Position numbers and translations under genes: made by a program. 32,229 nucleotides of DNA from IMG/VR virus record IMGVR_UViG_2529292920_000016, one strand, 5' to 3'. The first letter of the stretch is position 1, and each line of letters starts with the position of its first letter. The DNA comes from a virus (taxonomy: Duplodnaviria > Heunggongvirae > Uroviricota > Caudoviricetes). Shown piece by piece: positions 3,891-26,671 of this stretch. The notes beneath the pieces were generated by a model. The model made no database searches and was not told the DNA's origin. It saw only the letters and a list, made by a program, of their open reading frames with translations.

Positions 3891-3982
3891 TTGTTTTAAC
3901 CTCATGACAGATTTAAGGATGAACAAATCCCTGCCATTGCTGGCATATAAGAATGAAACCGGATATTTATTACGGAACTGTT

Positions 3983-4174: not shown

Positions 4175-4359
4175 TGTGCACATCCTTTTGGCATCAGACG
4201 TAAACGAGCCAGCATTGAAACAATGCATATTTTATTTAATAGCTCCCGTTCTTGTTTTCTCTTGTTAATGGCATCTTCAGTAAATACTGGGTTACTGATA
4301 GTGACACCAATTTCAAAACAACCTTCAGACGTATTAACGTTTGGTAATAACGTTTTCAT
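4171..4359 (-). CDS. dicB: Cell-division inhibitor DicB
   Basis: 62-aa product MKTLLPNVNTSEGCFEIGVTISNPVFTEDAINKRKQERELLNKICIVSMLARLRLMPKGCAQ matches DicB as I remember it. It lies downstream of DicF, as in Qin. Confidence 0.85.
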   Translation of the reverse strand: MKTLLPNVNTSEGCFEIGVTISNPVFTEDAINKRKQERELLNKICIVSMLARLRLMPKGCAQ

Positions 4360-4533
4360 TATCGCGTCCTCAACAATGAATTTTGTGATGCAGTGCCTGG
4401 TGCCTCCAGGTGACGTTAACCAGTTAACAATTAACGCCGGATACAGAGAATCCACCCATAACACTGTTTTTGGTTTTAACTGTTCCGCGTGCGCTCAGCC
4501 GCATTCACCACATCACAAAATTCACTTTAAAAA

Positions 4534-4586
4534 GGGCGGCAGAGCAGTCACGGAGTAAAACTGATACCGCCAAACGTCACCAGAAA
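4534..4586 (-). ncRNA. dicF: DicF small RNA (ftsZ-targeting sRNA)
   Basis: The minus strand reads TTTCTGGTGACGTTTGGCGGTATCAGTTTTACTCCGTGACTGCTCTGCCGCCC followed by TTTTT (4529-4533). This is the 53-nt DicF sequence as I recall it, with its terminator. Confidence 0.85.
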
Positions 4587-4927
4587 ATTGATAACAGAGG
4601 GCGTTGCAGCGGGGTTGTCACTTAAGCGTATGGTCAACCTGACAACCCGGTGTCCTCAACGGGGGAAGGAATAACCCCGCCATACTTACCGCCGCGCCAT
4701 TTCGCGGATTGCCACAACCGGAAGCGCACGGTCGACGAAAATTTAACGACAGGCTATCTATGAACCAGCTACCTCGCCGTGCGCTTTCGCGTTATGGTCT
4801 GACTTTTCAGGGACATATCCTTTCAGTAAACTGTCAGTGCCGGATGCTCACCCGTGTCCGGCGCACGCACTCCACCTCATCCGTGGAGAACTCCTTAATT
4901 ACCAACCTTAGCTTCGTTGGTTAGCTA

Positions 4928-5146
4928 TTAACGCGGGTATGTAATCATTCTGGCAATGCTTAATGTCGCTGCTTTTTCCAGATTAGTGATATCCTGCTCC
5001 AGAGCGGACAGATTTTCAGCCTGCTTAGCCCTGGCTTCATTGGCCCATTTCAGATCCTGCGCTGCATTAATTTTCTGGCGCATCCACTCATAAAGTTCAT
5101 CATCGGTATAGTCTGGCGCGATGATGACGGGTTCTCGTTTCTGCAT
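4928..5146 (-). CDS. ydfC: YdfC-like small protein
   Basis: 72-aa ORF with GAGGA RBS before ATG 5146. Same order (ydfA-ydfB-ydfC-dicF-dicB) as the Qin dic operon. Confidence 0.75.
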   Translation of the reverse strand: MQKREPVIIAPDYTDDELYEWMRQKINAAQDLKWANEARAKQAENLSALEQDITNLEKAATLSIARMITYPR

Positions 5147-5175
5147 ACTGATTCCTCGCGGTGCTGTTTCGCTTA

Positions 5176-5304
5176 TCAGCCGTTAGATTTTGCCGAACTG
5201 GAAAGTGCCTGTTTAAATTCGCTGAAGCTGAGAGCTTCTTCGCCTTCGGCAAGACCTTCGAAGTATTCTTCGTAAGCCTTTTCCATGATTGTGTCGAAAT
5301 CCAT
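5176..5304 (-). CDS. ydfB: YdfB-like 42-aa protein
   Basis: Below the ORF-track length cutoff. ATG 5304 gives MDFDTIMEKAYEEYFEGLAEGEEALSFSEFKQALSSSAKSNG, with the stop at 5176-5178. It starts 1 nt after the ydfA stop. Confidence 0.65.
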   Translation of the reverse strand: MDFDTIMEKAYEEYFEGLAEGEEALSFSEFKQALSSSAKSNG

Positions 5305-5305
5305 A

Positions 5306-5461
5306 TCACCCACCTGAATTTCTTTCCAGCCAGCGACGCGCTCCAGATTCGGTTTTAAACGTTTTGCTTTTGGTATACGTCATCGCGGTGAACGTACCGT
5401 CCTGGTTGGGGAACACGCCACATACCAGAGATTCGCTGTTGCCAAGATCGATAGTATCCAT
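5306..5461 (-). CDS. ydfA: YdfA-like 51-aa protein, first gene of the leftward early operon
   Basis: Internal ATG 5461 with a GAGG RBS gives MDTIDLGNSESLVCGVFPNQDGTFTAMTYTKSKTFKTESGARRWLERNSGG. The longer track ORF start has no RBS. Confidence 0.7.
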   Translation of the reverse strand: MDTIDLGNSESLVCGVFPNQDGTFTAMTYTKSKTFKTESGARRWLERNSGG

Positions 5462-5554
5462 GTTGACCTCATTTCCCCTTAACGCCGGGGTAGCGGAACT
5501 GTTTGCTGAGAACACCGTGCGGTGTCTTGATGGATCGTAATTTAGTTTTCTCAT

Positions 5555-5652
5555 GAATATTGATCAAGTGCTTTTGATGATAAAACTCAATATTTAATGC
5601 AAAATAAAGCCAATACATTGAAATGTAAGGCTTTAAAATTTGTGAAGGGGGG
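5555..5652 (-). promoter_or_regulatory. Leftward early promoter/operator region (PL-equivalent)
   Basis: AT-rich gap between the repressor gene and ydfA. It holds TTGATGATAAAACTCAA (5574-5590) and the palindrome TTGATCAA (5560-5567). The 9-mer AAAACTCAA recurs at 6116-6124. Confidence 0.45.
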
Positions 5653-6060
5653 TTATTGATGTTTGTTACGTTTGCGAGCTTCTAGTAGCTCGGTGAATAG
5701 GCGATTAAAATTCTCAACGCGGGCACGGAGTTCGCTGATTTGTGCTTGCTGCTCTGATTTTGGAAGTGCGCGATACAATCGCAACATCTCCAACTCATCT
5801 TCCGATAAGTCTAAGGCGCTGTTGAGTGCAACTGGTGGATCTGGTGTTTTATCCTCGTCACCAAACAGTATCCAAGTTGGTGAACATTGCAATACCTCAG
5901 CCAGGCGATGCAAATTTTGCCCGCGCGGGGCTGTATGGTCGCTTTCCCATAGTGAAATTGATGAGCCAGATACGCCAGCAGCTTTGCTTAAATCGTTTTG
6001 ACTTAAACCAACCTGTTTGCGTCTTTCTCTAATTCGTTGACCTAAAGTTTTCTCGTTCAT
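5653..6060 (-). CDS. dicA: DicA/CI-like XRE-family repressor
   Basis: 135-aa ORF. N-terminal HTH (LSQNDLSKAAGVSGSSISLWE) and the LQCSPTWILFGDEDK block shared with DicA. Divergent from the cro-like gene. Confidence 0.8.
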   Translation of the reverse strand: MNEKTLGQRIRERRKQVGLSQNDLSKAAGVSGSSISLWESDHTAPRGQNLHRLAEVLQCSPTWILFGDEDKTPDPPVALNSALDLSEDELEMLRLYRALPKSEQQAQISELRARVENFNRLFTELLEARKRNKHQ

Positions 6061-6137
6061 ATTTAGATATCTTAATAACCCTTGACTTGAGATTCCTTGA
6101 GTGATTACTATTGAGAAAACTCAACTTTGGAGGGGTG
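6061..6137. promoter_or_regulatory. Divergent immunity promoter/operator region (PR/PRM-equivalent)
   Basis: TTGACT (6082-6087), an 18-nt spacer, then TACTAT (6106-6111) facing right. Palindrome TTGAG-AAAA-CTCAA at 6111-6124 overlaps the predicted start site. Extra TTGAG half-sites at 6087 and 6097. Confidence 0.5.
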
Positions 6138-6365
6138 ATGTTTAAATCAGACGTAATTAATTTTTATGGGACGAAAGCCAAAGTAGCGAAAGCTGCTGGT
6201 GTTGATCCATCTGCTGTTTCTCAATGGGGGGAACTGGTTCCTGAAGGTCGCGCGATGCGCCTGCAAGAGGCATCCGGCGGGGAACTTCAGTACGACCCCA
6301 AAGTTTATGACGAATATCGTAAGGCAAAGCGGGCGGGGCGGTTGAACAATGAAAATCACCCCTGA
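6138..6365 (+). CDS. dicC: DicC/Cro-like regulator
   Basis: GGAGG RBS before ATG 6138 gives a 76-aa product. The C-terminal block EGRAMRLQEASGGELQYDPKVYDEYRK matches DicC as recalled. Confidence 0.75.
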   Translation: MFKSDVINFYGTKAKVAKAAGVDPSAVSQWGELVPEGRAMRLQEASGGELQYDPKVYDEYRKAKRAGRLNNENHP

Positions 6366-6900
6366 ACAGGTTTGTGAGGCTCTGGATGCCTGGGTATGCC
6401 GACCAGGAATGACACAGGAGCAGGCGACGATATTAATCACGGAAGCATTCTGGGCTCTGAAAGAACGCCCGAACATCGATGTTCAACGCGTCACGTTTAA
6501 TGATGGCGAGGTTGATCAACGGGCGCTGTGCGTTAACCGGGTGAAGATATTCGAACGCTGGAAAGCTATCGACACCAGGGATAAGCGGAAAAAATTCACG
6601 GCGCTGATTCCGGCAATTATGGAGGCTATCCGAATTAGTGATTTCAGGCTGTATCGTGAGATCAGTGATGGAAAAAGCATTACGTACATGATCGCCGGAT
6701 TAAACAAAGAATATGGCGATGTGGTGGAGTCCGGGCTGCTTTTTGCGGATCCATCTGTTGTGGAACGTGAGACTGACGAGCTTATAGAAAAAGCTATTGC
6801 TTTCAAGCATGCGTATCGTCAGCAATATCAATATTACTTTGCAGATAAACAAATGTCTGCCAGGGGTTCGTATGAGTATCGATGCACTACGATGGGCTAA
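6349..6900 (+). CDS. YdaT-family protein (CII position)
   Basis: 183-aa ORF overlapping the cro-like stop. Position and helical character resemble Rac YdaT. Family call is from memory. Confidence 0.5.
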   Translation: MKITPEQVCEALDAWVCRPGMTQEQATILITEAFWALKERPNIDVQRVTFNDGEVDQRALCVNRVKIFERWKAIDTRDKRKKFTALIPAIMEAIRISDFRLYREISDGKSITYMIAGLNKEYGDVVESGLLFADPSVVERETDELIEKAIAFKHAYRQQYQYYFADKQMSARGSYEYRCTTMG

Positions 6901-7912
6901 AAAGGTGAAAACCGGCAGTTCATCCAGTAAGTCTGTATTGACCTGGCTTGCTGATATGTGCGGTGCCGATTTGTGTGCATACCCGTCTGTATCTGCACTG
7001 GCAGAAGTAACGGAACTGAACAAAAAGACTGTGCAGGACAGCTTACGACACCTGATGGAGATTGGGTTAATTGTTGATACCGGTGAGAGAAAAGGCAGAA
7101 CAAAGCAAATTGTGGTGTACCGACTTATCGGTGTAGAAGAAAGTGTTGCCGAGCCTGAATACACCCAAAAACGGGAGTCTTTAAAGGTGGGTAAAATCGG
7201 TGCTGTTAATAAAAACAGTACCGAAAATGGTTATGTTTCAGCACAAAACAGACCCAAAAACGGAACTCTTAGCTGCATGGAAAATAACCAAAGACACCCA
7301 AATTTTCCATCAAAGACACCCAAAAACGGATCACGGAACCCAAAGGAACCCAAAGAGCTAAACCCCACACATAACGCACGCGAGAGTGCTCCGACCAGTG
7401 AGCAGAAAGTTTTGTCGTTACAGGCTGCACCTCCTGTATTCCTGGATGGCCTGAGCGAACCCATCGAAAAATTTCCGATGACCGATAGCTGGTATTCGTC
7501 ACGGGATTTTCGACGACGGGCTGCGTTGTGGGGGATGGCTTTGCCGGAGACAGAATTCACACCTGCTGAACTTGCCGCCTTCCGGGACTACTGGGCTGCT
7601 GAGGGGAAAGTGTTTACGCAGATTCAGTGGGAGCAGAAATTCGCCCGTCACGTAAATCACGTCAGGGCGCAGGTTAAACCAGTCAGCAAGGGGGTAAACC
7701 ATGCAGCAGCACCAGGTGACACCGCATCACGGGCAGTTCAGGAAATTCGGGCAGCACGTGAGCAGTGGGAACGTGAAAACGGATTTATCAGCGACGGAAA
7801 CGGCCTGGAAGCTGTGGGAACTCATGGGGGAGGTTTATTCGAACCGCTGGACCCAGAAGAACGGGGCCGCACCTTCGAAGCTCTGGATTGCACAGATTGG
7901 TGCGATGACTGA
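6872..7912 (+). CDS. Replication initiator (O-like: N-terminal wHTH, C-terminal DnaT-like domain)
   Basis: ATG 6872 gives MSIDALRWAKKVKTGSSSSKSVLTWLADM..., a wHTH typical of phage replication proteins. DnaT-like block FPMTDSWYSS...FRDYWAAEGKVFTQIQWEQKF. Contains the iteron array. Confidence 0.75.
   Translation: MSIDALRWAKKVKTGSSSSKSVLTWLADMCGADLCAYPSVSALAEVTELNKKTVQDSLRHLMEIGLIVDTGERKGRTKQIVVYRLIGVEESVAEPEYTQKRESLKVGKIGAVNKNSTENGYVSAQNRPKNGTLSCMENNQRHPNFPSKTPKNGSRNPKEPKELNPTHNARESAPTSEQKVLSLQAAPPVFLDGLSEPIEKFPMTDSWYSSRDFRRRAALWGMALPETEFTPAELAAFRDYWAAEGKVFTQIQWEQKFARHVNHVRAQVKPVSKGVNHAAAPGDTASRAVQEIRAAREQWERENGFISDGNGLEAVGTHGGGLFEPLDPEERGRTFEALDCTDWCDD
7161..7357. repeat. Candidate ori iterons inside the initiator gene
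   Basis: The 12-mer ACCCAAAAACGG is exact at 7163-7174, 7252-7263 and 7318-7329. Related copies: AGACACCCAAATTTT at 7292-7306 and GGAACCCAAAGGAACCCAAAG at 7335-7355. An AT-rich stretch at 7177-7248 lies between copies 1 and 2. Confidence 0.65.
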
Positions 7913-8366
7913 GCAGAAAATCCGACAGGTCTGCCGCCAGTGCATGGACCGCTGCCGGGCGGGTGAAACATGGCCTCCGGACCTGGCTGAGTTTGTGGCG
8001 CTGATTTCTGAAAGCGGAGCCAATCCATTCGGTCTGACGGTGGATGCCGTGATGGAGGAGTACCGTCGCTGGCGCAACGAGTCCTGGCGATACGACGGGA
8101 GCGATAAATACCCGTGGTCTCAGCCTGTGCTGTATCACATTTGCCTCGAGATGCGTTCAAAGGGGATTGAGCGGCAGATGACCGAAGGGGAGTTAAAACG
8201 GCTTGCAGAACGGCAGCTGACGAAATGGGCAAAGCATGTTAGTAACGGCCTGAGTGTTCCGCCAGTCCGGCGACAACTGGCGGCACCCAAACGCCCGTCG
8301 GGGCCAACGCCAATTGAGTTGCTGAAACAGGAATATGAACGCCGGAAAGCGGCTGGGCTTGTCTGA
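7701..8366 (+). CDS. Replication protein P-like helicase loader
   Basis: ATG 7701 has AAGGGGG 6 nt upstream. Blocks ETWPPDLAEFVALI and YPWSQPVLYHICLEM align with lambda P as recalled. Overlaps the O-like gene by 212 nt in another frame. Confidence 0.7.
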   Translation: MQQHQVTPHHGQFRKFGQHVSSGNVKTDLSATETAWKLWELMGEVYSNRWTQKNGAAPSKLWIAQIGAMTEQKIRQVCRQCMDRCRAGETWPPDLAEFVALISESGANPFGLTVDAVMEEYRRWRNESWRYDGSDKYPWSQPVLYHICLEMRSKGIERQMTEGELKRLAERQLTKWAKHVSNGLSVPPVRRQLAAPKRPSGPTPIELLKQEYERRKAAGLV

Positions 8367-8398
8367 GTTGAGAAGTAATTTTTACCGGGAGGAAATTT

Positions 8399-8673
8399 AT
8401 GGAGACTGTTTTTGACGCACTGAAAGCAATGGGAAAAGCCACATCCATAGAACTTGCTGCGCGCGTGAAGAAGTGCTGAACGAACTATGGGAACTGAAAA
8501 AGGCTGGTTTTGTTGATAAAAGCGCGTACACCTGGCGTGTGGCTGATAACAACGTTCAGCAGGAACAGCCAGCGCAGGCAGAACTGCCGGAAGAAACCAC
8601 CACAATGAGTGAAGTTATGCAGCGCATACTGGCATTTTATCAGGGAAATGTTCGATATTTTAGACGTTACTAG
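8399..8673 (+). pseudogene. DUF1627-like winged-helix gene split by a frameshift
   Basis: GGAGG RBS, then ATG 8399 gives [26 protein letters not shown] (stop at 8477). It continues in another frame as [19 protein letters not shown]... to 8673. One missing base near 8465 would join the two pieces. Confidence 0.55.
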
Positions 8674-9112: not shown

Positions 9113-9955
9113 ATGAGGAAAAAATCGTTTGGACGTTGCCCGTTTGATTTCGACGAAGATGTAAAAAAAATAGCCGCGATAAATAAATATATCCATGCGA
9201 AATTTGAGAGGCATAAAAATAAAATAGATAACCTAAAGGGGGTGGAACAAAAATTGATGGTTTTACATTACTTTAATGTACTGAATGAACTTAGTAATCA
9301 GGCTATATTTTCTTTGAGTACCGGAGCCTTTTCAGCATCGGAAGTATTAACTAGAGTTATAATGGAACAGGCTGCCAATCAATTTTATATAGCAATTGAT
9401 GATGGAAAAAATGCACAAGCATTACTCAAGGGTAGTAAGAAATTAGTTCATAGTAATGGGAAACGGTGGCTGGAGTGTTTAAAATCCAAAGAAATGACTA
9501 ATCCAGCAGCAGATGAAAGGATTCGTATCGGAAAAGAGCTAACTGATATGTTTAATAGATTGTGGCCAAATACACCTGAATATCCTGGAACCAAAAAGCT
9601 TTTCGAAGTAATTGGCTGGGAAACACACTATCATGCCTATTACGTCCCTCTTTGTGATTCAATACATACATTCTCTGATGATATGGCAAATATAGTATCT
9701 CTATATAATGCAATCCAAAGCGATAAAACTACTGCTATCGAACTCACTCTTGCAGTTAAACAAGAAAATAAACGGCTGGCAATTTATAATGTCGTAATTG
9801 CTATTGGCCTGCGGTGTGAGGCCTTAGTAAATGTATTTAACTCTTTAGGTTATCGAGATATTATAACTGAAATGGCGCCAACAATAGATGCAGTCAACCA
9901 GATTATAATTCGATATGATGATTTCGAACATTCCAGAATTTTTTATTGTCAATAA
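9113..9955 (+). CDS. Orphan 280-aa helical protein of unknown function (cargo gene)
   Basis: AGGAGG RBS at 9102-9107. Long uninterrupted ORF, visibly AT-rich relative to the backbone. I recognise no TM segment and no nucleotide-binding or nuclease motif. Confidence 0.8.
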   Translation: MRKKSFGRCPFDFDEDVKKIAAINKYIHAKFERHKNKIDNLKGVEQKLMVLHYFNVLNELSNQAIFSLSTGAFSASEVLTRVIMEQAANQFYIAIDDGKNAQALLKGSKKLVHSNGKRWLECLKSKEMTNPAADERIRIGKELTDMFNRLWPNTPEYPGTKKLFEVIGWETHYHAYYVPLCDSIHTFSDDMANIVSLYNAIQSDKTTAIELTLAVKQENKRLAIYNVVIAIGLRCEALVNVFNSLGYRDIITEMAPTIDAVNQIIIRYDDFEHSRIFYCQ

Positions 9956-10993: not shown

Positions 10994-12367
10994 ATGAAAA
11001 GACTATATTATACCCATCATGATAGTCGAACCTTAAAACTTGCTATAGAAGGTGATGTTTCTGATAATGCGAATATTTTTACAGTAATTGTAGGTAAAAA
11101 TGGCGTTGGAAAAAGCAGATTGTTATCTCAGATTGCTAAAGACTGTATTCAAGATATTCATTTCTTGAAAACTTTTAATCCATTATTTGACAGAGAAATA
11201 ACACCAAAGTTAATTGCCGTATCTACCAGCCCATTCGATAAATTCCCTCCAGGGCGTAGGTCATTAAATCACCAAAGGAAAGAAAATAATTATCGCTATG
11301 TGGGTATGCGTGGAGAAGGCCCCTTCGGCGTATCAAATGCCGTATCCCTTTTATCTTCAGCAGCGAGAGGTTGGCTAGAGAAACTTGCTTATTCAGAAAA
11401 TCCTGCAAATTTACTCGATGTTTTTCATTCTATTGATTTTGAGCCCCATATAGAGTTTGTATTTAAACCAACTTACAACGGACCGGACACTCCTGACTAT
11501 AACTTCATTGGTGTATATTCAGATGAGATATTAACGGAAGTTAAGGAGTTATATTTAAAATACAATATAAAAATTGACAGGAAGAATATTGAGAGTCTCT
11601 TAAAGTTAAACTCCGAATCACGTCATGATATTTACGAAGCACTGGTTGAAATTAATCGATTTGAACCTGAACGTAGGGCTGTAACCTTGTCAGTCGATTT
11701 TACCAATGGTGAAACATTGGTTGGCTCGACTTATGCGAATAATTATTTTTCTAGATCAATTCTTAAACTTATGAACGCTGGCTTCATGAGATTGATGGAT
11801 ATGCGACTCATAAAAAAAAGCTATGGTCCCATGTCACTTAAACGTGCGAGCTCGGGAGAACAATGTTTATTAGTGATGTTGCTTGGAATTGCAGGGCATA
11901 TAACTGATGGTTCTATAATACTAATTGATGAACCGGAAATAAGCTTGCATCCTCGATGGCAGGAAGAGTTTATCATTATGTTAACAAAAGCATTTTTAAC
12001 TTACTCAGGTTGTCAATTCATAATTGCAACTCATTCACCACAAATAATATCCAATTTGCCGAATAAAGGTTGTTATATAACATCTTTGTCGAAAAGTTAT
12101 CTTTATAAAGCAAAATACTTTAGCAACCGGTCTGCAGACTATCAACTTGCGGAACTATTTGATGCCCCTGGCATTATGAATGAATACATTGCCAGATTAG
12201 CTTTCAATTTACTTTCAAAAGTTAAGACTGCTAAGTTAGTAACAGATGATAATTGGCGTGAATTAAAACAACTCCAGCTTCTCCTTGAAAACGTTAATAG
12301 TAATGACCCTATTAATGAACTCGTAAATTCCGTATCTCAGGTGTGTGAAATTTATGCCAAAAATTAA
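10994..12367 (+). CDS. ABC/SMC-type ATPase, Septu PtuA-like
   Basis: Walker A GKNGVGKS (aa 34-41), signature-like ASSGEQ, Walker B IILIDEPEISLH and ATHSPQ His-loop. There is a long helical insert between Walker A and the signature. AT-rich. Confidence 0.8.
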   Translation: MKRLYYTHHDSRTLKLAIEGDVSDNANIFTVIVGKNGVGKSRLLSQIAKDCIQDIHFLKTFNPLFDREITPKLIAVSTSPFDKFPPGRRSLNHQRKENNYRYVGMRGEGPFGVSNAVSLLSSAARGWLEKLAYSENPANLLDVFHSIDFEPHIEFVFKPTYNGPDTPDYNFIGVYSDEILTEVKELYLKYNIKIDRKNIESLLKLNSESRHDIYEALVEINRFEPERRAVTLSVDFTNGETLVGSTYANNYFSRSILKLMNAGFMRLMDMRLIKKSYGPMSLKRASSGEQCLLVMLLGIAGHITDGSIILIDEPEISLHPRWQEEFIIMLTKAFLTYSGCQFIIATHSPQIISNLPNKGCYITSLSKSYLYKAKYFSNRSADYQLAELFDAPGIMNEYIARLAFNLLSKVKTAKLVTDDNWRELKQLQLLLENVNSNDPINELVNSVSQVCEIYAKN

Positions 12368-12983
12368 AAATCCAATTAGATTCAGCGCAGAGTCATTAGA
12401 TATTATTGAGAAAAAATTGTCTTCTCCAGATTTTAAGCATACCAACTGGGGAGATGATGATTTGCAAGTTCTCCGTGCAGAAATTAGAAATCATTACAGA
12501 GAAGAACAAAAGCTAGAATGTGTATATTGTCATGAGCCTATTGGGGTAAGAGCTGCACAAGCTGCTCCTATAGAGCATATTGTGCCAAAATCTCAATATC
12601 TATGTTTTATTTTTGAACCTAAGAATCTATGTGTAGTATGTCCTGACTGCAATGAATTCAAAGGTAAAAATGAAGTGTTATTTGAACCCGTAATAAATGG
12701 GGGGCGGCGCAAAAACTATCCAACTGCATCTGCATCATTTCGCATCGTTCATCCACATATAGATGATTATGAGATGCATATTATAAAAGCAAATCGTGTT
12801 TATGTGGACAAAACACCTAAAGGGCACTATACCATTGGAATATGTAAACTAAATAGATTTTTTCATTATTTTGGGATGTGTGATGAATTTGTTAATGATG
12901 CAAAAATTGCTGAGGCAAATGAAAATTTTTTCAAAAAGGTAGTATTACTACTAATGAATTATTGGATGATGACATTCATTTGA
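12354..12983 (+). CDS. HNH endonuclease, Septu PtuB-like
   Basis: ATG 12354 (or GTG 12345) overlaps the ATPase stop. HNH motif: CVYCHEP...IEHIVPKS...NLCVVCPDCNEFKG. Confidence 0.8.
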   Translation: MPKIKNPIRFSAESLDIIEKKLSSPDFKHTNWGDDDLQVLRAEIRNHYREEQKLECVYCHEPIGVRAAQAAPIEHIVPKSQYLCFIFEPKNLCVVCPDCNEFKGKNEVLFEPVINGGRRKNYPTASASFRIVHPHIDDYEMHIIKANRVYVDKTPKGHYTIGICKLNRFFHYFGMCDEFVNDAKIAEANENFFKKVVLLLMNYWMMTFI

Positions 12984-13242: not shown

Positions 13243-14331
13243 TCATGCTAGACACATGTAGGTTAGCCTCTTACGTGCCGGAAGGCAAGGAGATGTATGG
13301 GTCCACCACATATTGCAATTTTTATTCTCTTTTAAAATATATTCCACGGGCGTCATTAGTGCGAGCGCCTTGTGGGGTCTTTTGCTGTTATACAGCACCA
13401 GATATTCCGCCAGCTTCTGGTTAAATAGCGCCAGATCTTCAAAGAGTAAAATCTCATTAAATTCAATAAACTGCTCTCTTAACGTCCGGTTAAAACGTTC
13501 ACAGATAGCGTTCATTTTTGGCGTGTAGGGATAGGTCCAGAGGTGTTTGATAGCGGCTTCCTGCAGCGTTTTGTCGAAGTTTCCCAGGAACTCTTTTCCG
13601 TTATCTGTGATTATCTGGCTGATACCGACCGGGAACAACCGGGCTGCGCGGCTGAAGAAGTGATTGACGATATCACTGTTGAGTGACGGCACAGCCAGCG
13701 CCAGCGCGTAATTGCTGCATTCGTCGATCATGGTGATGACATAGCGACGCAGTTCGCCCATTCTGAGCTCAATGGCGTCCATCCCAATGAGCTCACCTGT
13801 CTTTACCGGGCGGTAGTGCTTTGGCCTGCGGGGTTTGGCAGACCGCTTTTTGACAAGCAGTGCCTTCCCCCGCGATCCCAGACGCACAGGTATCATCCGC
13901 ATTTTATCATGTGCGGCAGCGATCATTCTGCCGATGGTGGAAACACTCGGACAGGCCAGATAGCGCTGTTCGCACCAGGGCTTCAGGCGAACAAAAATCT
14001 GCTCTTTACCGAGGTTCGGCAGCTCTGTCCTGAGGCGTCGAATCTCTTTCAGCACATCGGGATGCCAGTGTTTTTTTCGTCGCACCAGAGGTGCCTTACT
14101 GTGCGGGATTAGCCCCTCAGGTCCTTCCTTGTTCAGTAACTGACGCCACCAGTAAAGCGTGCGGCAGGACACGCCAAAGGCTTCAGAAGCTGCAGAAATA
14201 CCGTGTTTATCCCAGAAGTGCAGAGCCTTCATTCTCATTGTTGCTATATCAGCCATCACTGAAAGCCTCAACGCATAATCGGCCGTTTGGTAGTACTTAG
14301 GATAGCCAACCATCAGATGCTGCATTTGCAT
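13243..14331 (-). CDS. DDE (rve-type) transposase, IS481-like single-ORF architecture
   Basis: 362-aa ORF with an N-terminal HTH. DDE candidates are GMDAIE, ITDNGKEF and NAICERFNRTL. The family guess is from architecture only. Confidence 0.75.
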   Translation of the reverse strand: MQMQHLMVGYPKYYQTADYALRLSVMADIATMRMKALHFWDKHGISAASEAFGVSCRTLYWWRQLLNKEGPEGLIPHSKAPLVRRKKHWHPDVLKEIRRLRTELPNLGKEQIFVRLKPWCEQRYLACPSVSTIGRMIAAAHDKMRMIPVRLGSRGKALLVKKRSAKPRRPKHYRPVKTGELIGMDAIELRMGELRRYVITMIDECSNYALALAVPSLNSDIVNHFFSRAARLFPVGISQIITDNGKEFLGNFDKTLQEAAIKHLWTYPYTPKMNAICERFNRTLREQFIEFNEILLFEDLALFNQKLAEYLVLYNSKRPHKALALMTPVEYILKENKNCNMWWTHTSPCLPARKRLTYMCLA

Positions 14332-19105: not shown

Positions 19106-19181
19106 GGCCCTTTAGCTCAGTGGTGAGAGCGAGCGACTCATAATCGCCAGGTCGCTGGTTCAAATCCAGCAAGGGCCACCA
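19106..19181 (+). tRNA. tRNA with CAU anticodon, ileX/ileZ-like (Ile2) or Met
   Basis: Acceptor GGCCCTT/AAGGGCC, anticodon loop CTCATAA, T-loop GGTTCAAATCC and encoded CCA. Close to E. coli ileX as recalled. Confidence 0.85.
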
Positions 19182-19190
19182 TCACATACC

Positions 19191-19260
19191 GCCATTAGCT
19201 CATCGGCAGAGAGCGTCAGCTTTCGAAACTGGCTGTGTGGGGCCCGGGTCCCCGATGGCA
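19191..19260 (+). tRNA. Degenerate tRNA-like element (possible Arg-UCG pseudo-tRNA)
   Basis: Acceptor-like GCCATT.../...GATGGC and D-arm GCTCATCGGCAGAGAGC. The loop TTTCGAA sits on an imperfect stem. The T-arm GGGGCCCGGGTCCCC lacks TTC. Confidence 0.3.
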
Positions 19261-19278
19261 ATCCATTATCTGCATTAT

Positions 19279-19355
19279 GCGTTGTTAGCTCAGCCGGACA
19301 GAGCAATTGCCTTCTAAGCAATCGGTCACTGGTTCGAATCCAGTACAACGCGCCA
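19279..19355 (+). tRNA. tRNA-Arg (UCU)
   Basis: Acceptor GCGTTGT/ACAACGC, anticodon loop CTTCTAA, T-loop GGTTCGAATCC and encoded CCA. Confidence 0.85.
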
Positions 19356-20587: not shown

Positions 20588-20801
20588 TTAGTTTCCTTGT
20601 TTATGCCTTGCTGGTGATGTTCTGAAAAGTATAAATGATATTTTTGATTGTAAACCATAGAGCAGAATTATTTTTCTGATGTAGTTTATCCATGCATATC
20701 TGCTTGATGATGAGGTTTTTATTTAAGGTATGGTTTTGTGTTTTTTCTGTATTACATGTCAGGTATTTTAAAGAATTATTCTTCAGATGGTGGAAAGAAC
20801 C

Positions 20802-22652
20802 ATGGCATTTAAACACTATGATGTTGTCAGGGCGGCGTCGCCGTCAGATCTTGCGGAAAAGCTGACACATAAACTGAAAGAGGGCTGGCAGCCGTTTGGT
20901 AGTCCGGTGGCCATAACCCCTTATACCCTGATGCAGGCGATTGCAGCAGAAGGTGATATGGTCGTCAGTGGTGCAACTGAGCCAGAGTGGTACTACGTCA
21001 TCGTACTGGCCGGGCAATCCAATGCCATGGCTTACGGTGAAGGGCTTCCGCTTCCGGATTCATACGATGCGCCTCATCCGCGCATTAAGCAACTGGCCCG
21101 TCGTAACACAGTGACTCCCGGTGGTGAAGTATGCGTATTTAACGACATCATTCCTGCTGACCATTGTCTGCATGATGTTCAGGATATGAGTACGATTAAC
21201 CATCCCCGGGCTGACCTGAGCAAAGGGCAGTACGGCTGTGTCGGACAGGGCTTACATATTGCCAAAAAACTGCTTCCGTATATCCCTAATAATGCGGGGA
21301 TCCTGCTGGTACCATGCTGTCGTGGTGGTTCGGCATTCACCCAGGGCACGGAGGGGACATTCAGCGAGTCCACGGGGGCCAGTCAGGATTCGGCTCGCTG
21401 GGGAGTGGGTAAGCCGTTATATCAGGATCTGCTTTTCCGCACGAAGGCAGCATTGCAGAAAAACCCGAAAAACGTTTTGCTGGCGATATGCTGGATGCAG
21501 GGGGAATTCGATATGACGAATGCCAGTTACGCCCAGCAGCCAGCAGCATTTCTTGCAATGGTACAGCAGTTCCGTGCTGACTTTGCCGGGCTGGCGGCGC
21601 AGTGTCACGGTGGAAGTCCGGCATCAGTCCCCTGGATTTGTGGCGACACGACATACGCGTGGAAACAAGAACACGGTACGCAATATGAAGTGGTATATGG
21701 TGCATATAAAGGTAAAGAATCCCAGCAGATTTATTTTGTTCCCTTTATGACCGATGGTAGCGGAGTTAATACACCGACAAACAACCCGTCAGAAGATCCT
21801 GATATTGCCGGGTCTGGTTATTACGGTTCGGCATCCCGAACGAACAAAAACTGGGTATCATCAAATCGCCCGACGCATTTCAGCTCATGGACGCGTCGTG
21901 GCATTATTCCCGATCGTATGGCAACTGCTATTCTGAACGTAGCCGGTCGCACCTTAGCCTTCATTAGTGGTAAGGCACCGGAAATCAAACCCTCGCCCGG
22001 CGGCGACACGCCATCGGGGCCGTCTGAAGATGCATCCGTACGCACAATCTCCCTGTTGCCGACAGCCGGAGATGCTGCTGCGCAGGGCTGGAGCATTAAG
22101 AATGGCGGAATTCAGTTGTCAGATGGTGTATTTAAGATCACCAAGCAGAGCAATAAAACCTGGTCCCTGATGCATCCGGTGGATGACGCAATTACCCTGC
22201 TGACACAGGGCGGCAGACTGACCTGTAAGTTCCGCCTCTCAGGCGCACTGACCAACAATCAGTTCGGGCTGGGGATTTATCTGTATACGGACGCTCCCGT
22301 TCCTGATGATGTGGCGATGACGGGTACTGGTAATCCGTTCCTGATGTCTTACTTCACTCAGACCACTGACGGCAGAGTGAATCTGATGCATCACAGGAAA
22401 GCCGGAAACACGAAGCTGGGGGAGTTCGGCGATTACGGTAACGACTGGCAGACGCTGGAGCTGGTGTTCACCGCCGGCAGTGCCACGGTTACTCCGAAAC
22501 TGAATGGAGTGGCTGGCCCGGCATTCCAGGTTATAAAAGACAGTCTGACACTGGGACTGAATGCGCTGACGCTGACGGATGTTACAAAAAATGCAGCGTA
22601 TGGCGTTGAGATAGAAAGTCTGGTGCTGGAGATAAATGCACCGGCAGCATAA
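20802..22652 (+). CDS. nanS: Prophage sialate O-acetylesterase (NanS-p type)
   Basis: N-terminal MAFKHYDVVRAASPSDLAEKL (DUF1737-like), then an esterase core (VLAGQSNA Ser motif) and a C-terminal beta-rich domain. This is the usual position downstream of the stx slot. Confidence 0.75.
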   Translation: MAFKHYDVVRAASPSDLAEKLTHKLKEGWQPFGSPVAITPYTLMQAIAAEGDMVVSGATEPEWYYVIVLAGQSNAMAYGEGLPLPDSYDAPHPRIKQLARRNTVTPGGEVCVFNDIIPADHCLHDVQDMSTINHPRADLSKGQYGCVGQGLHIAKKLLPYIPNNAGILLVPCCRGGSAFTQGTEGTFSESTGASQDSARWGVGKPLYQDLLFRTKAALQKNPKNVLLAICWMQGEFDMTNASYAQQPAAFLAMVQQFRADFAGLAAQCHGGSPASVPWICGDTTYAWKQEHGTQYEVVYGAYKGKESQQIYFVPFMTDGSGVNTPTNNPSEDPDIAGSGYYGSASRTNKNWVSSNRPTHFSSWTRRGIIPDRMATAILNVAGRTLAFISGKAPEIKPSPGGDTPSGPSEDASVRTISLLPTAGDAAAQGWSIKNGGIQLSDGVFKITKQSNKTWSLMHPVDDAITLLTQGGRLTCKFRLSGALTNNQFGLGIYLYTDAPVPDDVAMTGTGNPFLMSYFTQTTDGRVNLMHHRKAGNTKLGEFGDYGNDWQTLELVFTAGSATVTPKLNGVAGPAFQVIKDSLTLGLNALTLTDVTKNAAYGVEIESLVLEINAPAA

Positions 22653-22944: not shown

Positions 22945-23151
22945 ATGGAAAAAATCACAACAGGTGTGTCATACACCACGTCAGCGGTGGGGACGGGATA
23001 CTGGTTACTGCAGCTGCTGGACAAAGTCTCTCCGTCCCAGTGGGTGGCAATAGGTGTGCTGGGGAGTCTGCTGTTTGGCCTGCTGACGTATCTGACAAAC
23101 CTTTATTTCAAGATTAAAGAAGATAAGCGCAAGGCTGCGAGAGGTGAATAA
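22945..23151 (+). CDS. Class II holin (phage 21 S / pinholin type)
   Basis: 68 aa with two TMDs. [40 protein letters not shown] is close to S21 as recalled. Confidence 0.85.
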
Positions 23152-23648
23152 TGCCTCCATCATTACGAAAAGCCGTTGCTGCTGCTATTGGTGGTGGGGC
23201 TGTTGCCATAGCGTCTGTGCTCATCACTGGTCCGAGTGGTGACGATGGCCTGGAAGGTGTCAGCTACATACCATACGAAGATATCGTTGGCGTATGGACT
23301 GTATGTCACGGACACACCGGAAAAGACATCATGCCCGGTAAAACGTATACCGAAGCAGAATGCAAAGCCCTCCTGAATAAAGACCTTGCCACGGTCGCCA
23401 GACAAATAAACCCGTACATCAACGTCGATATACCGGAAACAACGCGCGGCGCTCTTTACTCGTTCGTTTACAACGTGGGCGCTGGCAATTTCAGAACATC
23501 GACGCTTCTTCGCAAAATAAACCAGGGCGATATCAAAGGCGCATGTGATCAGCTACGGCGCTGGACATACGCTGGCGGTAAGCAATGGAAAGGGCTGATG
23601 ACTCGCCGTGAGATTGAGCGTGAAGTCTGTTTGTGGGGGCAACAATGA
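23151..23648 (+). CDS. SAR endolysin (R21-type lysozyme)
   Basis: TAATG overlap with the holin. The N-terminal Gly/Ala-rich signal-arrest-release segment is [18 protein letters not shown]. The E...D...T catalytic block is [22 protein letters not shown]. Confidence 0.9.
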
Positions 23649-24082
23649 GCAGAGTAACCGCGATTATCTACGTTCTGGTCATCTGCCTCATCGTCTGCCT
23701 TTCATGGGCTGTTAATCATTACCGTGATAACGCCATCGCCTACAAAGAGCAGCGCGATAAAGCCACATCCATCATCGCTGATATGCAGAAGCGGCAACGT
23801 GATGTAGCAGAACTTGACGCCAGATACACAAAGGAGCTTGCTGATGCTAATGCGACTATCGAAAGTCTCCGTGCTGATGTTTCTGCTGGGCGTAAGCGCC
23901 TGCAAGTCGCCGCCACCTGTGCAAAGTCAACGACCGGAGCCAGCGGCATGGGCAATGGAGAAACCCCAGGACTTACAGCAGATGCTGAACTCAATTATTA
24001 CCGTCTCCGAAGTGGAATCGACAGGATAACCGCGCAGGTTAACTACTTGCAGGAGTACATTAGGACGCAATGCCTTCGATGA
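23645..24082 (+). CDS. Rz i-spanin
   Basis: ATGA overlap with the endolysin. N-terminal TMD followed by a coiled-coil periplasmic domain. Confidence 0.85.
23844..24029 (+). CDS. Rz1 o-spanin lipoprotein embedded in Rz
   Basis: +1 frame inside Rz. AGGAG RBS before ATG 23844. Lipobox LLGVSAC followed by a Pro-rich mature part. Confidence 0.8.
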
Positions 24083-24154: not shown

Positions 24155-24181
24155 AGAACCACCCGCTATACGAGTGGTTCT
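24155..24181. terminator. Bidirectional hairpin between Rz and the antisense cargo gene
   Basis: AGAACCAC / GTGGTTCT 8-bp stem, A-rich upstream and T-rich downstream. Confidence 0.55.
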
Positions 24182-24198
24182 GATTTACACTTTTGAAA

Positions 24199-24429
24199 CT
24201 AAAAGCTAAATACTTGAGCAAGAACAGCTAACGCTGCGCAAAAAGCAGCCCGTTTATTCCATTTACTTTGTATTTCAATGGCTTTAAAACAACCCAGTGA
24301 TGAGAAACTGCCTTGTTCCGTTTTTGGTGGGTGTTCTTTGGAAGATGCAAAACATGAAATAATCCAAAAAATGGCGGAAAAAATTCCAAAAATTATTGAA
24401 GGCAAATGATGCTCTTTCAAAAACTCCAT
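24199..24429 (-). CDS. 76-aa two-TMD membrane protein (cargo in the slot where lambda carries bor)
   Basis: AT-rich minus-strand ORF with a GAGAG RBS. Hydrophobic segments: LPSIIFGIFSAIFWIISCFA and AAFCAALAVLAQVFSF. Confidence 0.55.
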   Translation of the reverse strand: MEFLKEHHLPSIIFGIFSAIFWIISCFASSKEHPPKTEQGSFSSLGCFKAIEIQSKWNKRAAFCAALAVLAQVFSF

Positions 24430-25104
24430 GACTTAACTCTCTTAAAAGTTGCTAAACATCGCTCGCAAACAAGAAAGAAAAGTTCTGTTGCGAGCACTCC
24501 ACAATTTAAACGCCACACAAGCAGCTATTAGGTGGACGGTTCCAAGATTGCTATCAACTGCCACCCGAATACCGTCAAAACTTGACGTCCAACCAAGAAT
24601 TATTGAGTTGTAAACTCAACGCAATGATCTGGTTGGTATAAATGTGACATATGTCATGAATCGACTAGTTGAGATAGTCAAGATGGGCTTGCTTGACATC
24701 ATCACCACAACCGGAGCCAACAATGGCAGATTGCGTTACCCAGATTTGATAAAGGCATTTTAGCCTGACATAACTATGCACTGTATCGTCGCCGTATTCC
24801 CGCATCAACAGAGACCACAGCCCGAGAGGGAGACTCCTCTGCGCGAGTGTGCGGGGATAATCAAAAACGATACACACCGGGGTTTACCGTGTTAACGGAG
24901 CGCGGCGTTGTCCCCTCATGGTCGCTGGTCCGGTGCGATGGTGGAAGAAACCGGACGATGTGTTACCTCGCAAACTCTGTTATGTCATGTGTCTGATTTG
25001 TGATTTAAGTCGGATAATTGTCATTGCCATTAAGCAGAGGATTGATGACCGACAGGGCTGCATTGTTAGAATAAGACTTATTCTTATCTATGCCGGGAAT
25101 AAAA

Positions 25105-25431
25105 ATGAAAAGAAATCTTCCGTTAATTATTTTGTTGTCTTCTTTGGTTATGGGCTGTACGCAACATAAAACAGATATGCCTCGACAGTTGGTTAAGGCA
25201 TTACCACAATATCCGGCCTATGCCGCGGCAAATTATATAAAGGGACGGGTTGATGTGAAGTTTGATATTGGTGCTGATGGTACTGTCACCCGAATTGAGT
25301 TTATCCGTTCAGAGCCGCACCATCTGTTTGATGAGCAGGTTGTAAAGGCGATGGCAAAATGGCGATTTGAGAAGGACAAGCCGCGTAAAGGCGTGAAGAA
25401 AACATTTATCTTTAGTCCTTCAGCACCCTGA
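25105..25431 (+). CDS. Lipoprotein with TonB C-terminal-like domain
   Basis: Signal peptide plus lipobox LVMGC. The YPAYAAANYIKGRVDVKFDIGADGTVTRIEFIRSEP...VVKAMAKWRF pattern is typical of TonB_C. Confidence 0.75.
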   Translation: MKRNLPLIILLSSLVMGCTQHKTDMPRQLVKALPQYPAYAAANYIKGRVDVKFDIGADGTVTRIEFIRSEPHHLFDEQVVKAMAKWRFEKDKPRKGVKKTFIFSPSAP

Positions 25432-26122: not shown

Positions 26123-26671
26123 ATGAACGTCAATAAGAAAAAACTGGCCGATATTTTTGGCGTTGATGTCAGGACCATCACCGCCTGGCAGAGTCAGGGG
26201 TTACCACTAGTTTCTGGTGGAGGGAAAGGGACTGAATCAGTTTTTGATACAACTGCTGCCATTCAGTGGTATGCGCAGAGGGAAGCTGATATTGAAAACG
26301 AAAAACTCCGTAAAGAGATCGAGGATTTGAGGGCTGCCAGCGAATCAGACCTTCAGCCCGGCACCATTGATTACGAACGTTACCGACTGACGAAGGCACA
26401 GGCCGATGCACAGGAGCTGAAAAATGCTCGTGAGGAAGGCCTTGTCCTCGAGACGGAGTTATTTACCTACATCTTTCAGCGAGTGGCACAGAATATATCA
26501 GGGATCCTTGTCCGTGTCCCTCAGACACTGCAGCGTAAATACCCTGATATATCACCCGCACATCTTGATGCTGTGAAAACTGAAAGCGCGAAAGCATCCG
26601 ATGTGGCTTCTGAAGCCGGTGAGAATGTGCGCAGGTGGATTGATGATTTCAGACGAACTGAGGGCGGCTAA
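26123..26671 (+). CDS. nu1: Terminase small subunit (Nu1-like)
   Basis: The N-terminal w[31 protein letters not shown] parallels lambda Nu1. GGGGGAG RBS. Confidence 0.9.

What the first reader, a model, noticed from the sequence alone, without database searches (positions are those of the whole stretch)
25105..25431. Prophage lipoprotein consisting of little more than a TonB C-terminal domain
The lipobox LVMGC is followed by a roughly 85-aa TonB_C-like fold (YPAYAAANYIKGRVDVKFDI...AMAKWRF). There is no TonB TMD and no Pro-rich spacer.

A periplasmic, outer-membrane-tethered TonB-box binder could compete with host TonB at TonB-dependent receptors. That would block TonB-dependent phages and colicins, functionally analogous to Cor-type exclusion of FhuA-using phages. 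This is a hypothesis only.
Basis: inference. Interest (0 to 1): 0.5.

Follow-up and report, generated by a model that had tools for sequence, protein, structure and literature searches.

The report
Prophage lipoprotein copying TonB's C-terminal domain
A lambda-like E. coli prophage encodes a small outer-membrane lipoprotein that is essentially a copy of the receptor-docking end of the host's TonB energy-coupling protein; it is widespread and conserved, has no tested function, and may interfere with TonB-dependent uptake of iron, phages and colicins.

Summary
Window 25105-25431 (+) encodes a 108-aa protein made of a signal peptide, the lipobox LVMGC and one TonB_C domain. The domain hits Pfam at E=2.4e-15 and is 41% identical, gap-free, to E. 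coli TonB 153-230. The AlphaFold2 model superposes on solved TonB C-terminal domains at 1.0-1.1 A. There is no membrane anchor and no Pro-rich spacer.

The gene lies between Rz/Rz1 and terminase Nu1 and evolves under purifying selection (dN/dS 0.10-0.14). This allele occurs in 414 of 5426 complete E. coli genomes. A 70%-identical allele, also carried by classical phage 21, occurs in 1221 of 5426.

It belongs to an Enterobacterales family of stand-alone secreted TonB_C proteins. Members occupy the same lysis/terminase slot in Sodalis, Rahnella and Klebsiella phages and are chromosomal in Pantoea, Erwinia, Salmonella and Serratia. Many relatives have strong Fur boxes just upstream; the window has only a 13/19 match.

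A related complete prophage has a phage-434-like J tip, so masking of the phage's own receptor, as Cor and Llp do, is unlikely. The Fur link keeps open a rival role as an iron-regulon modulator.

The parts
25105..25431 (+). Gene for the 108-aa TonB_C lipoprotein, stop codon included
   Evidence: ORF listed. RefSeq annotates the identical protein WP_000828067.1 as 'TonB family protein'. dN/dS is 0.10-0.14 against diverged alleles.
25105..25158 (+). Signal peptide with lipobox L14-V-M-G-C18. The Cys18 codon is 25156-25158 and the +2 residue is Thr.
   Evidence: Sequence. The lipobox pattern is matched in 29 of 34 family members and +2 is never Asp. Outer-membrane sorting is inferred from the Lol +2 rule, which is established knowledge and was not tested here.
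25180..25416 (+). TonB C-terminal domain, residues 26-104, aligned to E. coli TonB 153-231
   Evidence: AlphaFold2 pLDDT is 95-98 across the domain. Foldseek matches 1u07, 2gsk_B and 2grx_C at rmsd 1.0-1.1 A.
25045..25072 (+). Candidate sigma-70 promoter: -35 ATGACC, 16-nt spacer, extended -10 TGtTAGAAT. It ends 33 nt upstream of the ATG.
   Evidence: Consensus scan gives 9 of 12 matches with a TG before the -10. The block ATTGTyAGAATAAGAC is conserved between the two diverged alleles. It is a prediction only.
25068..25088 (.). Palindrome AGAATAAGaCTTATTCT (25068-25084) overlapping a weak Fur-box-like 19-mer (25070-25088, 13 of 19 matches)
   Evidence: It lies at the same -35 position as the 16-17/19 Fur boxes of the Pantoea, Erwinia and Sodalis relatives, but only 2-4% of shuffles reach this score. 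The phage 21 allele has a 13-nt deletion here. Status inconclusive.
25095..25099 (+). Shine-Dalgarno-like GGGAA, 5 nt before the ATG
   Evidence: Sequence. GGAAT(A/G)AA(A/C)ATG precedes the start codon in all compared alleles.
23633..24082 (+). Context: Rz i-spanin, with Rz1 o-spanin embedded at about 23814-24029
   Evidence: Pfam Phage_lysis 1.1e-34 and Rz1 4.5e-20. The phage therefore already has a complete spanin.
26123..26671 (+). Context: terminase small subunit Nu1, the downstream border of the accessory-gene slot
   Evidence: Pfam Phage_Nu1 1.4e-85.

Best explanation
The gene encodes an outer-membrane-anchored, periplasm-facing paralogue of the TonB C-terminal domain. It was captured from an enterobacterial TonB lineage and is carried as an accessory ('moron') gene in the lysis/packaging junction of lambdoid prophages.

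After lipidation at Cys18 and Lol sorting, a tether of about 8-15 residues would hold the domain just under the outer membrane. There it can offer its beta3 edge strand to TonB-box peptides. These could belong to TonB-dependent transporters or to incoming TonB-box-bearing colicins and phage proteins. Alternatively it could pair with TonB itself.

It has no membrane anchor and no ExbB/ExbD-coupled part, so it cannot transduce energy. Binding would therefore be non-productive and would damp TonB-dependent import. A lysogen would gain tolerance to TonB-dependent phages (T1, phi80 type), group B colicins and microcins.

**Shown:** the architecture, the fold, purifying selection, the phage slot and the prevalence.
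**Inferred:** outer-membrane location, TonB-box binding, inhibition, and expression in lysogens.
For: - **Architecture and fold.**
- **Conserved TonB residues.** The TonB aromatic residues Y163, F180, F202, W213, Y215 and F230 correspond to Y36, F53, F75, W86, F88 and F103. The P-x-Y-P motif is kept.
- **Beta3 strand.** It is predicted with the same inward hydrophobic periodicity as in TonB.
- **Lipobox.** It is conserved across the family and +2 is never Asp.
- **Selection.** dN/dS is 0.10-0.14.
- **Same slot in unrelated phage backbones.** The gene sits between the lysis genes and terminase in E. coli phages with different packaging modules, in Rahnella and Sodalis prophages at 33-50% identity, and in a Klebsiella phage.
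- **Moron-like features.** G+C is 36-44% against about 50% in the flanks. A candidate extended -10 promoter is conserved. In UTI89 and phage 21 the gene sits beside iss/bor. It is kept intact in decayed prophages.
- **Iron link.** Strong Fur boxes lie upstream of relatives.
- **Precedent.** Over-produced periplasmic TonB domain inhibits transporter-mediated iron import (citing Howard 2001). From my memory of Howard 2001 and Koedding 2004 (PMID 14665631, listed), exported fragments as short as TonB-86 also protect against phi80 and colicin M.
Against: - No binding or phenotype data exist. No paper was found.
- Residues of TonB implicated in TonB-box contacts are not all kept. Q160 aligns with L33 and is variable in the family. 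R166 aligns with Y39.
- A pure TonB inhibitor induced by iron starvation, as the Fur boxes of chromosomal relatives imply, looks self-defeating.
- Up to 4 copies per genome are tolerated, and pathogens that depend on TonB carry the gene.
- Many copies of the phage-21-type allele have C-terminal frameshifts that remove beta3.
- The gene is co-oriented with the late operon, so expression may be late only.
- The promoter is a 9/12 consensus match.
Confidence: 0.45

Rival explanations
1. It is an iron-regulon accessory or modulator. On this view the family is an endogenous, Fur-controlled outer-membrane partner of TonB-dependent transporters. It might hold or prime TonB boxes, limit futile TonB cycles, or gate transporters when they are over-produced. 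Phages would carry it as a fitness or virulence factor alongside bor/iss, not as an anti-phage device.
For: - Fur-box matches of 14-17/19 lie 12-54 nt upstream of the start in chromosomal Pantoea and Erwinia genes and in the Sodalis prophage gene. Shuffled controls usually reach 13-14, and 15 at most.
- Contexts in Salmonella, Pantoea, Erwinia and Serratia are chromosomal and non-phage.
- The Pantoea-type branch is almost absent from viral contigs.
- The gene is adjacent to iss in UTI89.
- Several copies per genome are tolerated.
Against: - The protein lacks every part needed for energy coupling.
- The engineered analogue summarised in PMC9841981 inhibits uptake rather than helping it.
- The window's own upstream element is only 13/19, and the phage 21 allele has none.
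- No family gene examined sits next to a transporter or siderophore gene.
Confidence: 0.25
2. It is a late-phase lysis or release accessory factor, as the PHROG label 'Rz-like spanin' suggests. On this view the lipoprotein is made from the late transcript and acts at the envelope during lysis.
For: - It matches phrog_1267 over its full length (E=3.4e-42, category lysis).
- It lies directly after the lysis cassette on the late-operon strand.
- Like Rz1, it is an outer-membrane lipoprotein.
Against: - The phage already has Rz and an embedded Rz1.
- The protein has a globular TonB_C fold rather than a Pro-rich o-spanin.
- Homologues are chromosomal and far from any lysis genes.
- The PHROG label most likely comes from position.
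Confidence: 0.05
3. It is a decaying remnant of a captured host tonB 3' end with no function.
For: - Old annotations call it a 'partial tonB-like membrane protein' or 'TonB fragment'.
- Frameshifted copies are common.
Against: - dN/dS is 0.10-0.14.
- It has acquired a signal peptide and lipobox that are conserved across genera.
- Identity to TonB is only 41%, yet the fold is intact.
- All 80 IMG/VR copies listed are full length.
Confidence: 0.05

Closest known systems
C-terminal domain of the TonB energy transducer (E. coli TonB 153-239; PDB 1U07, 2GSK chain B, 2GRX chain C)
   Same: It has the same domain family and fold: 41% identity with no gaps, rmsd 1.0-1.1 A. The YP motif, all six aromatic residues of the domain and the beta3 strand are retained.
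   Different: It has no N-terminal membrane anchor and no Pro-rich rod. Instead it carries a lipoprotein signal peptide, so it would be anchored in the opposite membrane. It ends 4 residues short of TonB's C-terminus. The TonB-box-proximal residues Q160 and R166 are replaced by L33 and Y39.
Engineered periplasmic TonB fragments (Howard et al. 2001; Koedding et al. 2004)
   Same: These are stand-alone exported TonB C-terminal domains. The mature protein (91 aa) is about the size of the TonB-86/TonB-96 fragments. Over-production of such fragments inhibits transporter-mediated iron import. By my memory they also block phi80 and colicin M.
   Different: The fragments are soluble, artificial and over-expressed. 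The protein here is natural, lipid-anchored, diverged from TonB, and expressed at an unknown level and time.
Cor (phi80, N15, HK022) and Llp (T5), exclusion lipoproteins acting on FhuA
   Same: They are small phage-encoded outer-membrane lipoproteins that act from the periplasmic side on a TonB-dependent transporter.
   Different: - The fold is unrelated; the PDB fold search listed only TonB and TolA domains among its significant matches.
- Cor and Llp mask the receptor of their own phage. Here a closely related complete prophage has a 434-like J tip.
- Llp works allosterically on FhuA loops, not by TonB competition.
Bor/Iss lipoprotein morons of lambdoid phages
   Same: They occupy the same genomic slot between Rz and cos/Nu1. 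They are also small outer-membrane lipoproteins, and sit adjacent to this gene in phage 21 and UTI89.
   Different: There is no sequence or fold relationship. Bor/Iss is transcribed from the opposite strand and is linked to serum resistance.

Membership tests
TonB_C domain family (Pfam PF03544 / TIGR01352) | Profile score above the curated cut-off | tested here: met
   PF03544 scores 57.2 bits against 24.6. TIGR01352 scores 57.1 against 27.1.
TonB_C domain family (Pfam PF03544 / TIGR01352) | The alpha-beta-beta-alpha-beta fold of the TonB C-terminal domain | tested here: met
   The AlphaFold2 model has pLDDT 86. Foldseek gives rmsd 1.0-1.1 A and TMt 0.88-0.92 to 1u07, 2gsk_B and 2grx_C.
TonB energy transducer (TonB system transport protein) | N-terminal cytoplasmic-membrane anchor that couples to ExbB/ExbD | tested here: not met
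   The only hydrophobic segment is a cleavable lipoprotein signal peptide. NCBIfam equivalog models score 50-74 bits against cut-offs of 265-448 and align only with their C-terminal ~80 positions.
TonB energy transducer (TonB system transport protein) | Pro-rich (Glu-Pro / Lys-Pro) periplasm-spanning spacer | tested here: not met
   Only 7 residues separate Cys18 from the start of the TonB-homologous segment at P26.
TonB energy transducer (TonB system transport protein) | Binding of transporter TonB boxes by beta-strand pairing with beta3 | not testable with these tools
   The beta3 strand is predicted (residues 94-103), but no complex prediction or binding assay was available.
Bacterial outer-membrane lipoprotein | Signal peptide ending in a lipobox with an invariant Cys | tested here: met
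   LVMGC is at residues 14-18. The PROSITE-type pattern is matched, and the Cys is conserved in 29 of 34 relatives.
Bacterial outer-membrane lipoprotein | No Lol-avoidance Asp at +2 (outer-membrane sorting) | tested here: met
   The +2 residue is Thr here and S, T, A or V across the family. Actual lipidation and localisation were not tested.
Cor/Llp superinfection-exclusion lipoproteins | Cor/Llp sequence family or fold | tested here: not met
   Pfam and PHROG give no Cor or Llp hit. The significant fold matches are all TonB domains. BFVD gave no significant viral match.
Cor/Llp superinfection-exclusion lipoproteins | Blocks infection through the receptor of the encoding phage | not testable with these tools
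   Indirect evidence only. The J C-terminus of the closest complete prophage is 94% identical to phage 434 J, which argues against a TonB-dependent receptor for this phage.
Rz1-type o-spanin (PHROG 1267 label) | Pro-rich outer-membrane lipoprotein partnered with, and usually embedded in, the Rz gene | tested here: not met
   Rz (PF03245) and an embedded Rz1 (PF06085) are already present at 23633-24082. This protein has a globular TonB_C fold.
Moron (independent accessory transcription unit in a prophage) | Own promoter and terminator, with composition atypical of the flanks | tested here: inconclusive
   G+C is lower, 36-44% against about 50%. There is a conserved candidate extended -10 promoter. 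No convincing terminator was found downstream, and no expression data exist.
Fur regulon | Fur box overlapping the promoter | tested here: inconclusive
   Relatives score 14-17/19. The window scores only 13/19 at the homologous position, reached by 2-4% of shuffles. The phage 21 allele scores 10/19.

The most novel reading that the evidence does not exclude
Temperate phages of Enterobacterales have co-opted a Fur-regulated, stand-alone TonB C-terminal domain. They deploy it as an outer-membrane-tethered dominant-negative mimic of the host's own TonB. This would be a host-mimicry form of lysogenic conversion that lowers susceptibility to every TonB-dependent phage, colicin and microcin at once. 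It is carried by roughly a quarter of sequenced E. coli, including classical phage 21, EPEC, STEC and ExPEC prophages.
Probability: 0.3. Interest if true: 0.75.

Novelty: new variant of a known kind. Interest (0 to 1): 0.55.

Why it matters
If the protein damps TonB function, a very common prophage gene would alter several traits of pathogenic E. coli at once. The gene is present in 414 + 1221 of 5426 complete E. coli genomes. The affected traits would be:

- iron acquisition;
- sensitivity to TonB-dependent phages, which matters for phage therapy and for T1-type contamination;
- sensitivity to group B colicins and siderophore-microcins, which matters for probiotic competition;
- uptake of siderophore-conjugated antibiotics.

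It would also be a clear natural example of a phage using a truncated copy of a host protein as a competitive inhibitor. The Fur-regulated chromosomal relatives would point to an unrecognised modulator of TonB-dependent transport. The system is easy to test, because phage 21 and E2348/69 are standard laboratory material.

Tried and rejected
- **Spanin reading.** I rejected the PHROG 'Rz-like spanin' label because Rz and Rz1 are already present.
- **Known defence systems.** PADLOC gave no hit for this protein or its two small neighbours.
- **Viral structure library.** BFVD gave no significant match.
- **afdb50.** The fold library was unavailable.
- **Literature.** Ten full-text searches found no study of a phage TonB_C lipoprotein. 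Howard et al. 2001 could not be opened and is cited second-hand through.
- **Locus search with the broad family alignment.** It failed because no stretch was conserved enough. Narrower alignments worked.
- **First structure prediction.** With 6 sequences it was poor, pLDDT 58. It was replaced by the 34-sequence run.
- **Colicin link.** Pore-forming colicin and immunity genes lie next to the Serratia and one Pantoea homologue. Sister strains keep the TonB_C gene but have a different island at the same spot. I therefore treat this as adjacency to an insertion hot spot, not an operon.
- **Fur box in the window.** The window's palindrome as a true Fur box is not convincing: 13/19, and each half needs a 1-nt insertion to fit.
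- **Masking of its own receptor, as Cor does.** I judged this unlikely from the 434-like J tip of a related prophage. The window itself ends before the tail genes.

Full report
**1.

Window 25105-25431 (+) is an intact ORF of 108 codons plus stop. The product begins MKRNLPLIILLSSLVMGC.
- It has a basic n-region, an 11-residue hydrophobic core and a lipobox (L14-V-M-G-C18) that fits the PROSITE-type pattern.
- Thr follows the Cys. [quoted passage not shown] This is an inference and was not tested.
- The in-frame ATG at 25090 is not the start. RefSeq uses 25105. The sequence GGAAT(A/G)AA(A/C)ATG precedes the start codon in all alleles compared, and the diverged allele lacks the upstream ATG.

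**2. The rest of the protein is a TonB C-terminal domain and nothing else**

- Pfam TonB_C: E=2.4e-15 over residues 34-101.
- TIGR01352: 1.7e-15.
- Solved enterobacterial TonB C-terminal domains: E about 1e-16 over residues 26-104.
- NCBIfam models for full-length TonB match only with their last ~80 positions and fall far below their cut-offs. The membrane anchor and the Pro-rich spacer are therefore absent.
- AlphaFold2 with six close sequences gave a poor model (pLDDT 58). With 34 family sequences it gave mean pLDDT 86.3, pTM 0.71 and 95-98 over the domain.
- Foldseek against the PDB returns TonB domains only at the top: 1u07_A (E=4.9e-8, rmsd 1.1 A, target-normalised TM-score TMt 0.88), then 2gsk_B and 2grx_C (rmsd 1.0 A, TMt 0.92). 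TolA domain III appears only at E>0.09.
- With the offset of 127 residues, TonB Y163, F180, F202, W213, Y215 and F230 align with Y36, F53, F75, W86, F88 and F103. The P-x-Y-P motif is invariant in the family.
- By my memory of the BtuB and FhuA complexes and of suppressor genetics, TonB Q160 and R166 contact TonB boxes or the plug. They align with L33 (variable in the family) and Y39 (nearly invariant Tyr in the family).

**3. Setting in the window**

The window is a lambda-like prophage running from integrase (1-1119, minus strand) to the head genes.

The gene lies in the slot between the lysis cassette and packaging.
- Upstream are the lysozyme (23151-23648) and Rz (23633-24082) with embedded Rz1.
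- Downstream is Nu1 (26123-26671).
- Both flanks are on the same strand as the gene, which is the late-operon strand.
- The slot has 36-44% G+C against about 50% in the flanks.
- It also holds a 76-aa two-helix membrane ORF on the minus strand with a strong terminator and a DUF3950 ORF.

Upstream of the gene there is a candidate promoter (ATGACC, 16-nt spacer, TGtTAGAAT; 25045-25072), 33 nt before the ATG. Its -10 block is conserved between alleles whose flanks have otherwise diverged. No clear terminator follows. Whether the gene is expressed in lysogens, late in lytic growth, or both is unknown.

**4. It is a functional, widespread gene**

- Between this allele, a 90%-identical allele in a prophage with a different packaging module (HNH/Terminase_2/HK97-type) and the 70%-identical allele, Nei-Gojobori dN/dS is 0.14, 0.13 and 0.10.
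- The ORF occurs at 95% identity or more in 414 of 5426 complete E. coli genomes, with up to 4 copies per genome.
- The 70% allele occurs in 1221 of 5426, at 99% identity or more in 1203 of them.
- Carriers include EPEC E2348/69, Stx1a phages, phage JLK-2012 and Lys8385Vzw.
- Classical phage 21 carries it as CPT_21_73, annotated 'TonB C-terminal domain protein', just after bor.
- UTI89 carries it beside iss.
- 176 IMG/VR contigs encode it, and the 80 listed are all full length.
- It survives intact in prophages that have lost their structural genes.
- Frameshifted copies that lose beta3 also exist.

**5. The wider family**

An exhaustive profile search found 5442 TonB_C proteins at E of 0.001 or better. 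The best-scoring full-length hits of 104-133 aa are nearly all short signal-peptide or lipoprotein proteins with a single TonB_C domain.

A second search named Salmonella, Rahnella, Pantoea, Erwinia, Sodalis and Serratia as sources.

Genomic contexts split in two.
- **Prophage.** In Rahnella (33-36% identity) and Sodalis (50%) the gene sits in the same lysis/terminase slot of prophages with different lysis genes. The same is true in Klebsiella phage ST13-OXA48phi12.4.
- **Chromosomal.** In Salmonella, Pantoea, Erwinia and Serratia it is chromosomal with no phage genes nearby. The Pantoea-type branch is nearly absent from viral contigs.

The Serratia proteins have an ordinary signal peptide instead of a lipobox. 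They are natural soluble periplasmic TonB domains.

**6. An unexpected link to iron regulation**

I scanned 120-250 nt upstream of family genes with the 19-bp Fur consensus.

| Locus | Match | Position relative to ATG |
|---|---|---|
| Pantoea L014/L025 | 17/19 | -36 |
| Sodalis prophage | 17/19 | -30 |
| Pantoea L003 | 16/19 | -36 |
| Erwinia L016 | 16/19 | -35 |
| Seven further Pantoea, Erwinia and unclassified loci | 14-15/19 | -30 to -54 |
| Window (25070-25088) | 13/19 | -35 |
| Phage 21 allele | 10/19 | -78 |

- Shuffled controls usually peak at 13-14 and reach 15 at most.
- By eye, the 14-15/19 loci contain TGAGAATGATTATCA, a 14/15 fit to the 7-1-7 form of the Fur box.
- The Fur box explains the spurious N-terminal extensions of two database proteins.
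- The window's match overlaps an 8-1-8 palindrome. Only 2-4% of shuffles reach its score, and each half needs an inserted base to fit, so I call it inconclusive.
- The phage 21 allele has a 13-nt deletion at this position.

The family therefore appears to belong to the iron-starvation response in several genera. This supports a role connected with TonB-dependent transport but does not say whether that role is inhibitory.

**7. Mechanism**

The best-supported reading is an outer-membrane-tethered, energy-dead TonB C-terminal domain. It would bind TonB boxes, or TonB itself, non-productively and so damp TonB-dependent import.

The precedent is experimental. [quoted passage not shown] 2001). From memory, Howard 2001 and Koedding 2004 (reference confirmed) also showed protection from phi80 and colicin M by exported fragments down to 86 residues. 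That is about the size of this mature protein (91 aa).

The short tether would place the domain at the periplasmic rim of the barrels, where TonB docks in 2GRX and 2GSK. This is an inference.

Arguments against simple inhibition:
- the cost under iron limitation;
- Fur induction of the chromosomal relatives;
- replacement of Q160 and R166;
- tolerance of several copies per genome.

I put this explanation at 0.45. The Fur-regulon modulator or accessory rival gets 0.25. The rest goes to the minor rivals and to readings not considered here.

**8. Comparison with known systems**

- **Not a TonB.** Anchor and spacer were tested and are absent.
- **Not a spanin.** Rz and Rz1 are present and the fold is different. 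The PHROG label is positional.
- **Not Cor or Llp.** It shares with them only the lifestyle of a small phage outer-membrane lipoprotein acting under a TonB-dependent transporter. Cor and Llp protect against the phage's own receptor route. Here the closest complete prophage (O111:H2 12A) has a J C-terminus 94% identical to that of phage 434. By my memory that phage uses the porin OmpC. Any exclusion would therefore be aimed at other phages or at bacteriocins.
- **Bor/Iss.** It shares their slot, but they are unrelated.

**9. Novelty and score**

The gene is already annotated as 'TonB family protein' or 'TonB C-terminal domain protein'. No functional study was found in ten full-text searches, and it is absent from PADLOC.

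I classify it as a new variant of a known kind: a lysogenic-conversion outer-membrane lipoprotein, here built from a host TonB domain. Interest is 0.55. The case combines a neat, cheaply testable hypothesis with high prevalence in pathogens and an unanticipated Fur connection, but it has no phenotype yet.

Noticed in passing
window 10994-12983 (+): The prophage early region carries a complete Septu type I anti-phage system. PtuA (10994-12367) hits PADLOC at 1.9e-165 and PtuB, an HNH nuclease (12345-12983), at 5.7e-82. A DUF5677 gene precedes it at 9113-9955.
   Followed up: partly
window 13243-14331 (-): An IS transposase (rve/HTH domains) is inserted just after the Septu genes.
   Followed up: no
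window 24199-24429 (-), terminator 24155-24181: A 76-aa ORF with two predicted hydrophobic helices lies on the minus strand, in the position bor occupies in lambda and phage 21. It is followed by a 12-bp-stem intrinsic terminator. It has no Pfam or PADLOC hit and is annotated hypothetical in RefSeq.
   Followed up: partly
window 24947-25003 (+); phage 21 locus L022 2846-2983: A short ORF starting MVEETG-C-T lies upstream of the TonB_C gene. Its first codons are conserved between the two diverged alleles and it is annotated as a hypothetical protein in phage 21. It could be a leader peptide or simply conserved DNA.
   Followed up: no
L006-L008 (Serratia) 6001-8510; L014 (Pantoea) 2885-6327: The Serratia periplasmic TonB_C homologue lies directly upstream of a colicin-E1-type immunity gene and a 575-aa pore-forming colicin. 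The colicin N-terminus contains DSMTV, which by my memory resembles a group B colicin TonB box. A Pantoea homologue lies next to an integrase islet with another pore-forming colicin. Sister strains keep the TonB_C gene but carry other cargo at the spot, so this may just be an insertion hot spot.
   Followed up: partly
L003, L011, L014, L016, L025-L031, L035, L037 (12-54 nt upstream of the family genes): Strong Fur boxes (14-17 of 19 matches) precede chromosomal Pantoea and Erwinia family members and the Sodalis prophage copy. The Fur box is read as coding sequence in the over-long database proteins P0195 and P0186.
   Followed up: yes
proteins P0035, P0038, P0041, P0055 from the representative search: Secreted proteins of 296-513 aa contain 3-5 tandem TonB_C domains and no TonB anchor. 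They score better against the lipoprotein-family profile than canonical TonB does.
   Followed up: no
window 19106-19355 (+) and 20787-22652 (+): tRNA-Met (anticodon CAT; the homologous tRNA in L019 is annotated tRNA-Ile) and tRNA-Arg(TCT) lie downstream of the Q-like antiterminator. They are followed by a 621-aa SASA-family carbohydrate esterase (NanS-p type), as in STEC and EPEC lambdoid prophages.
   Followed up: no
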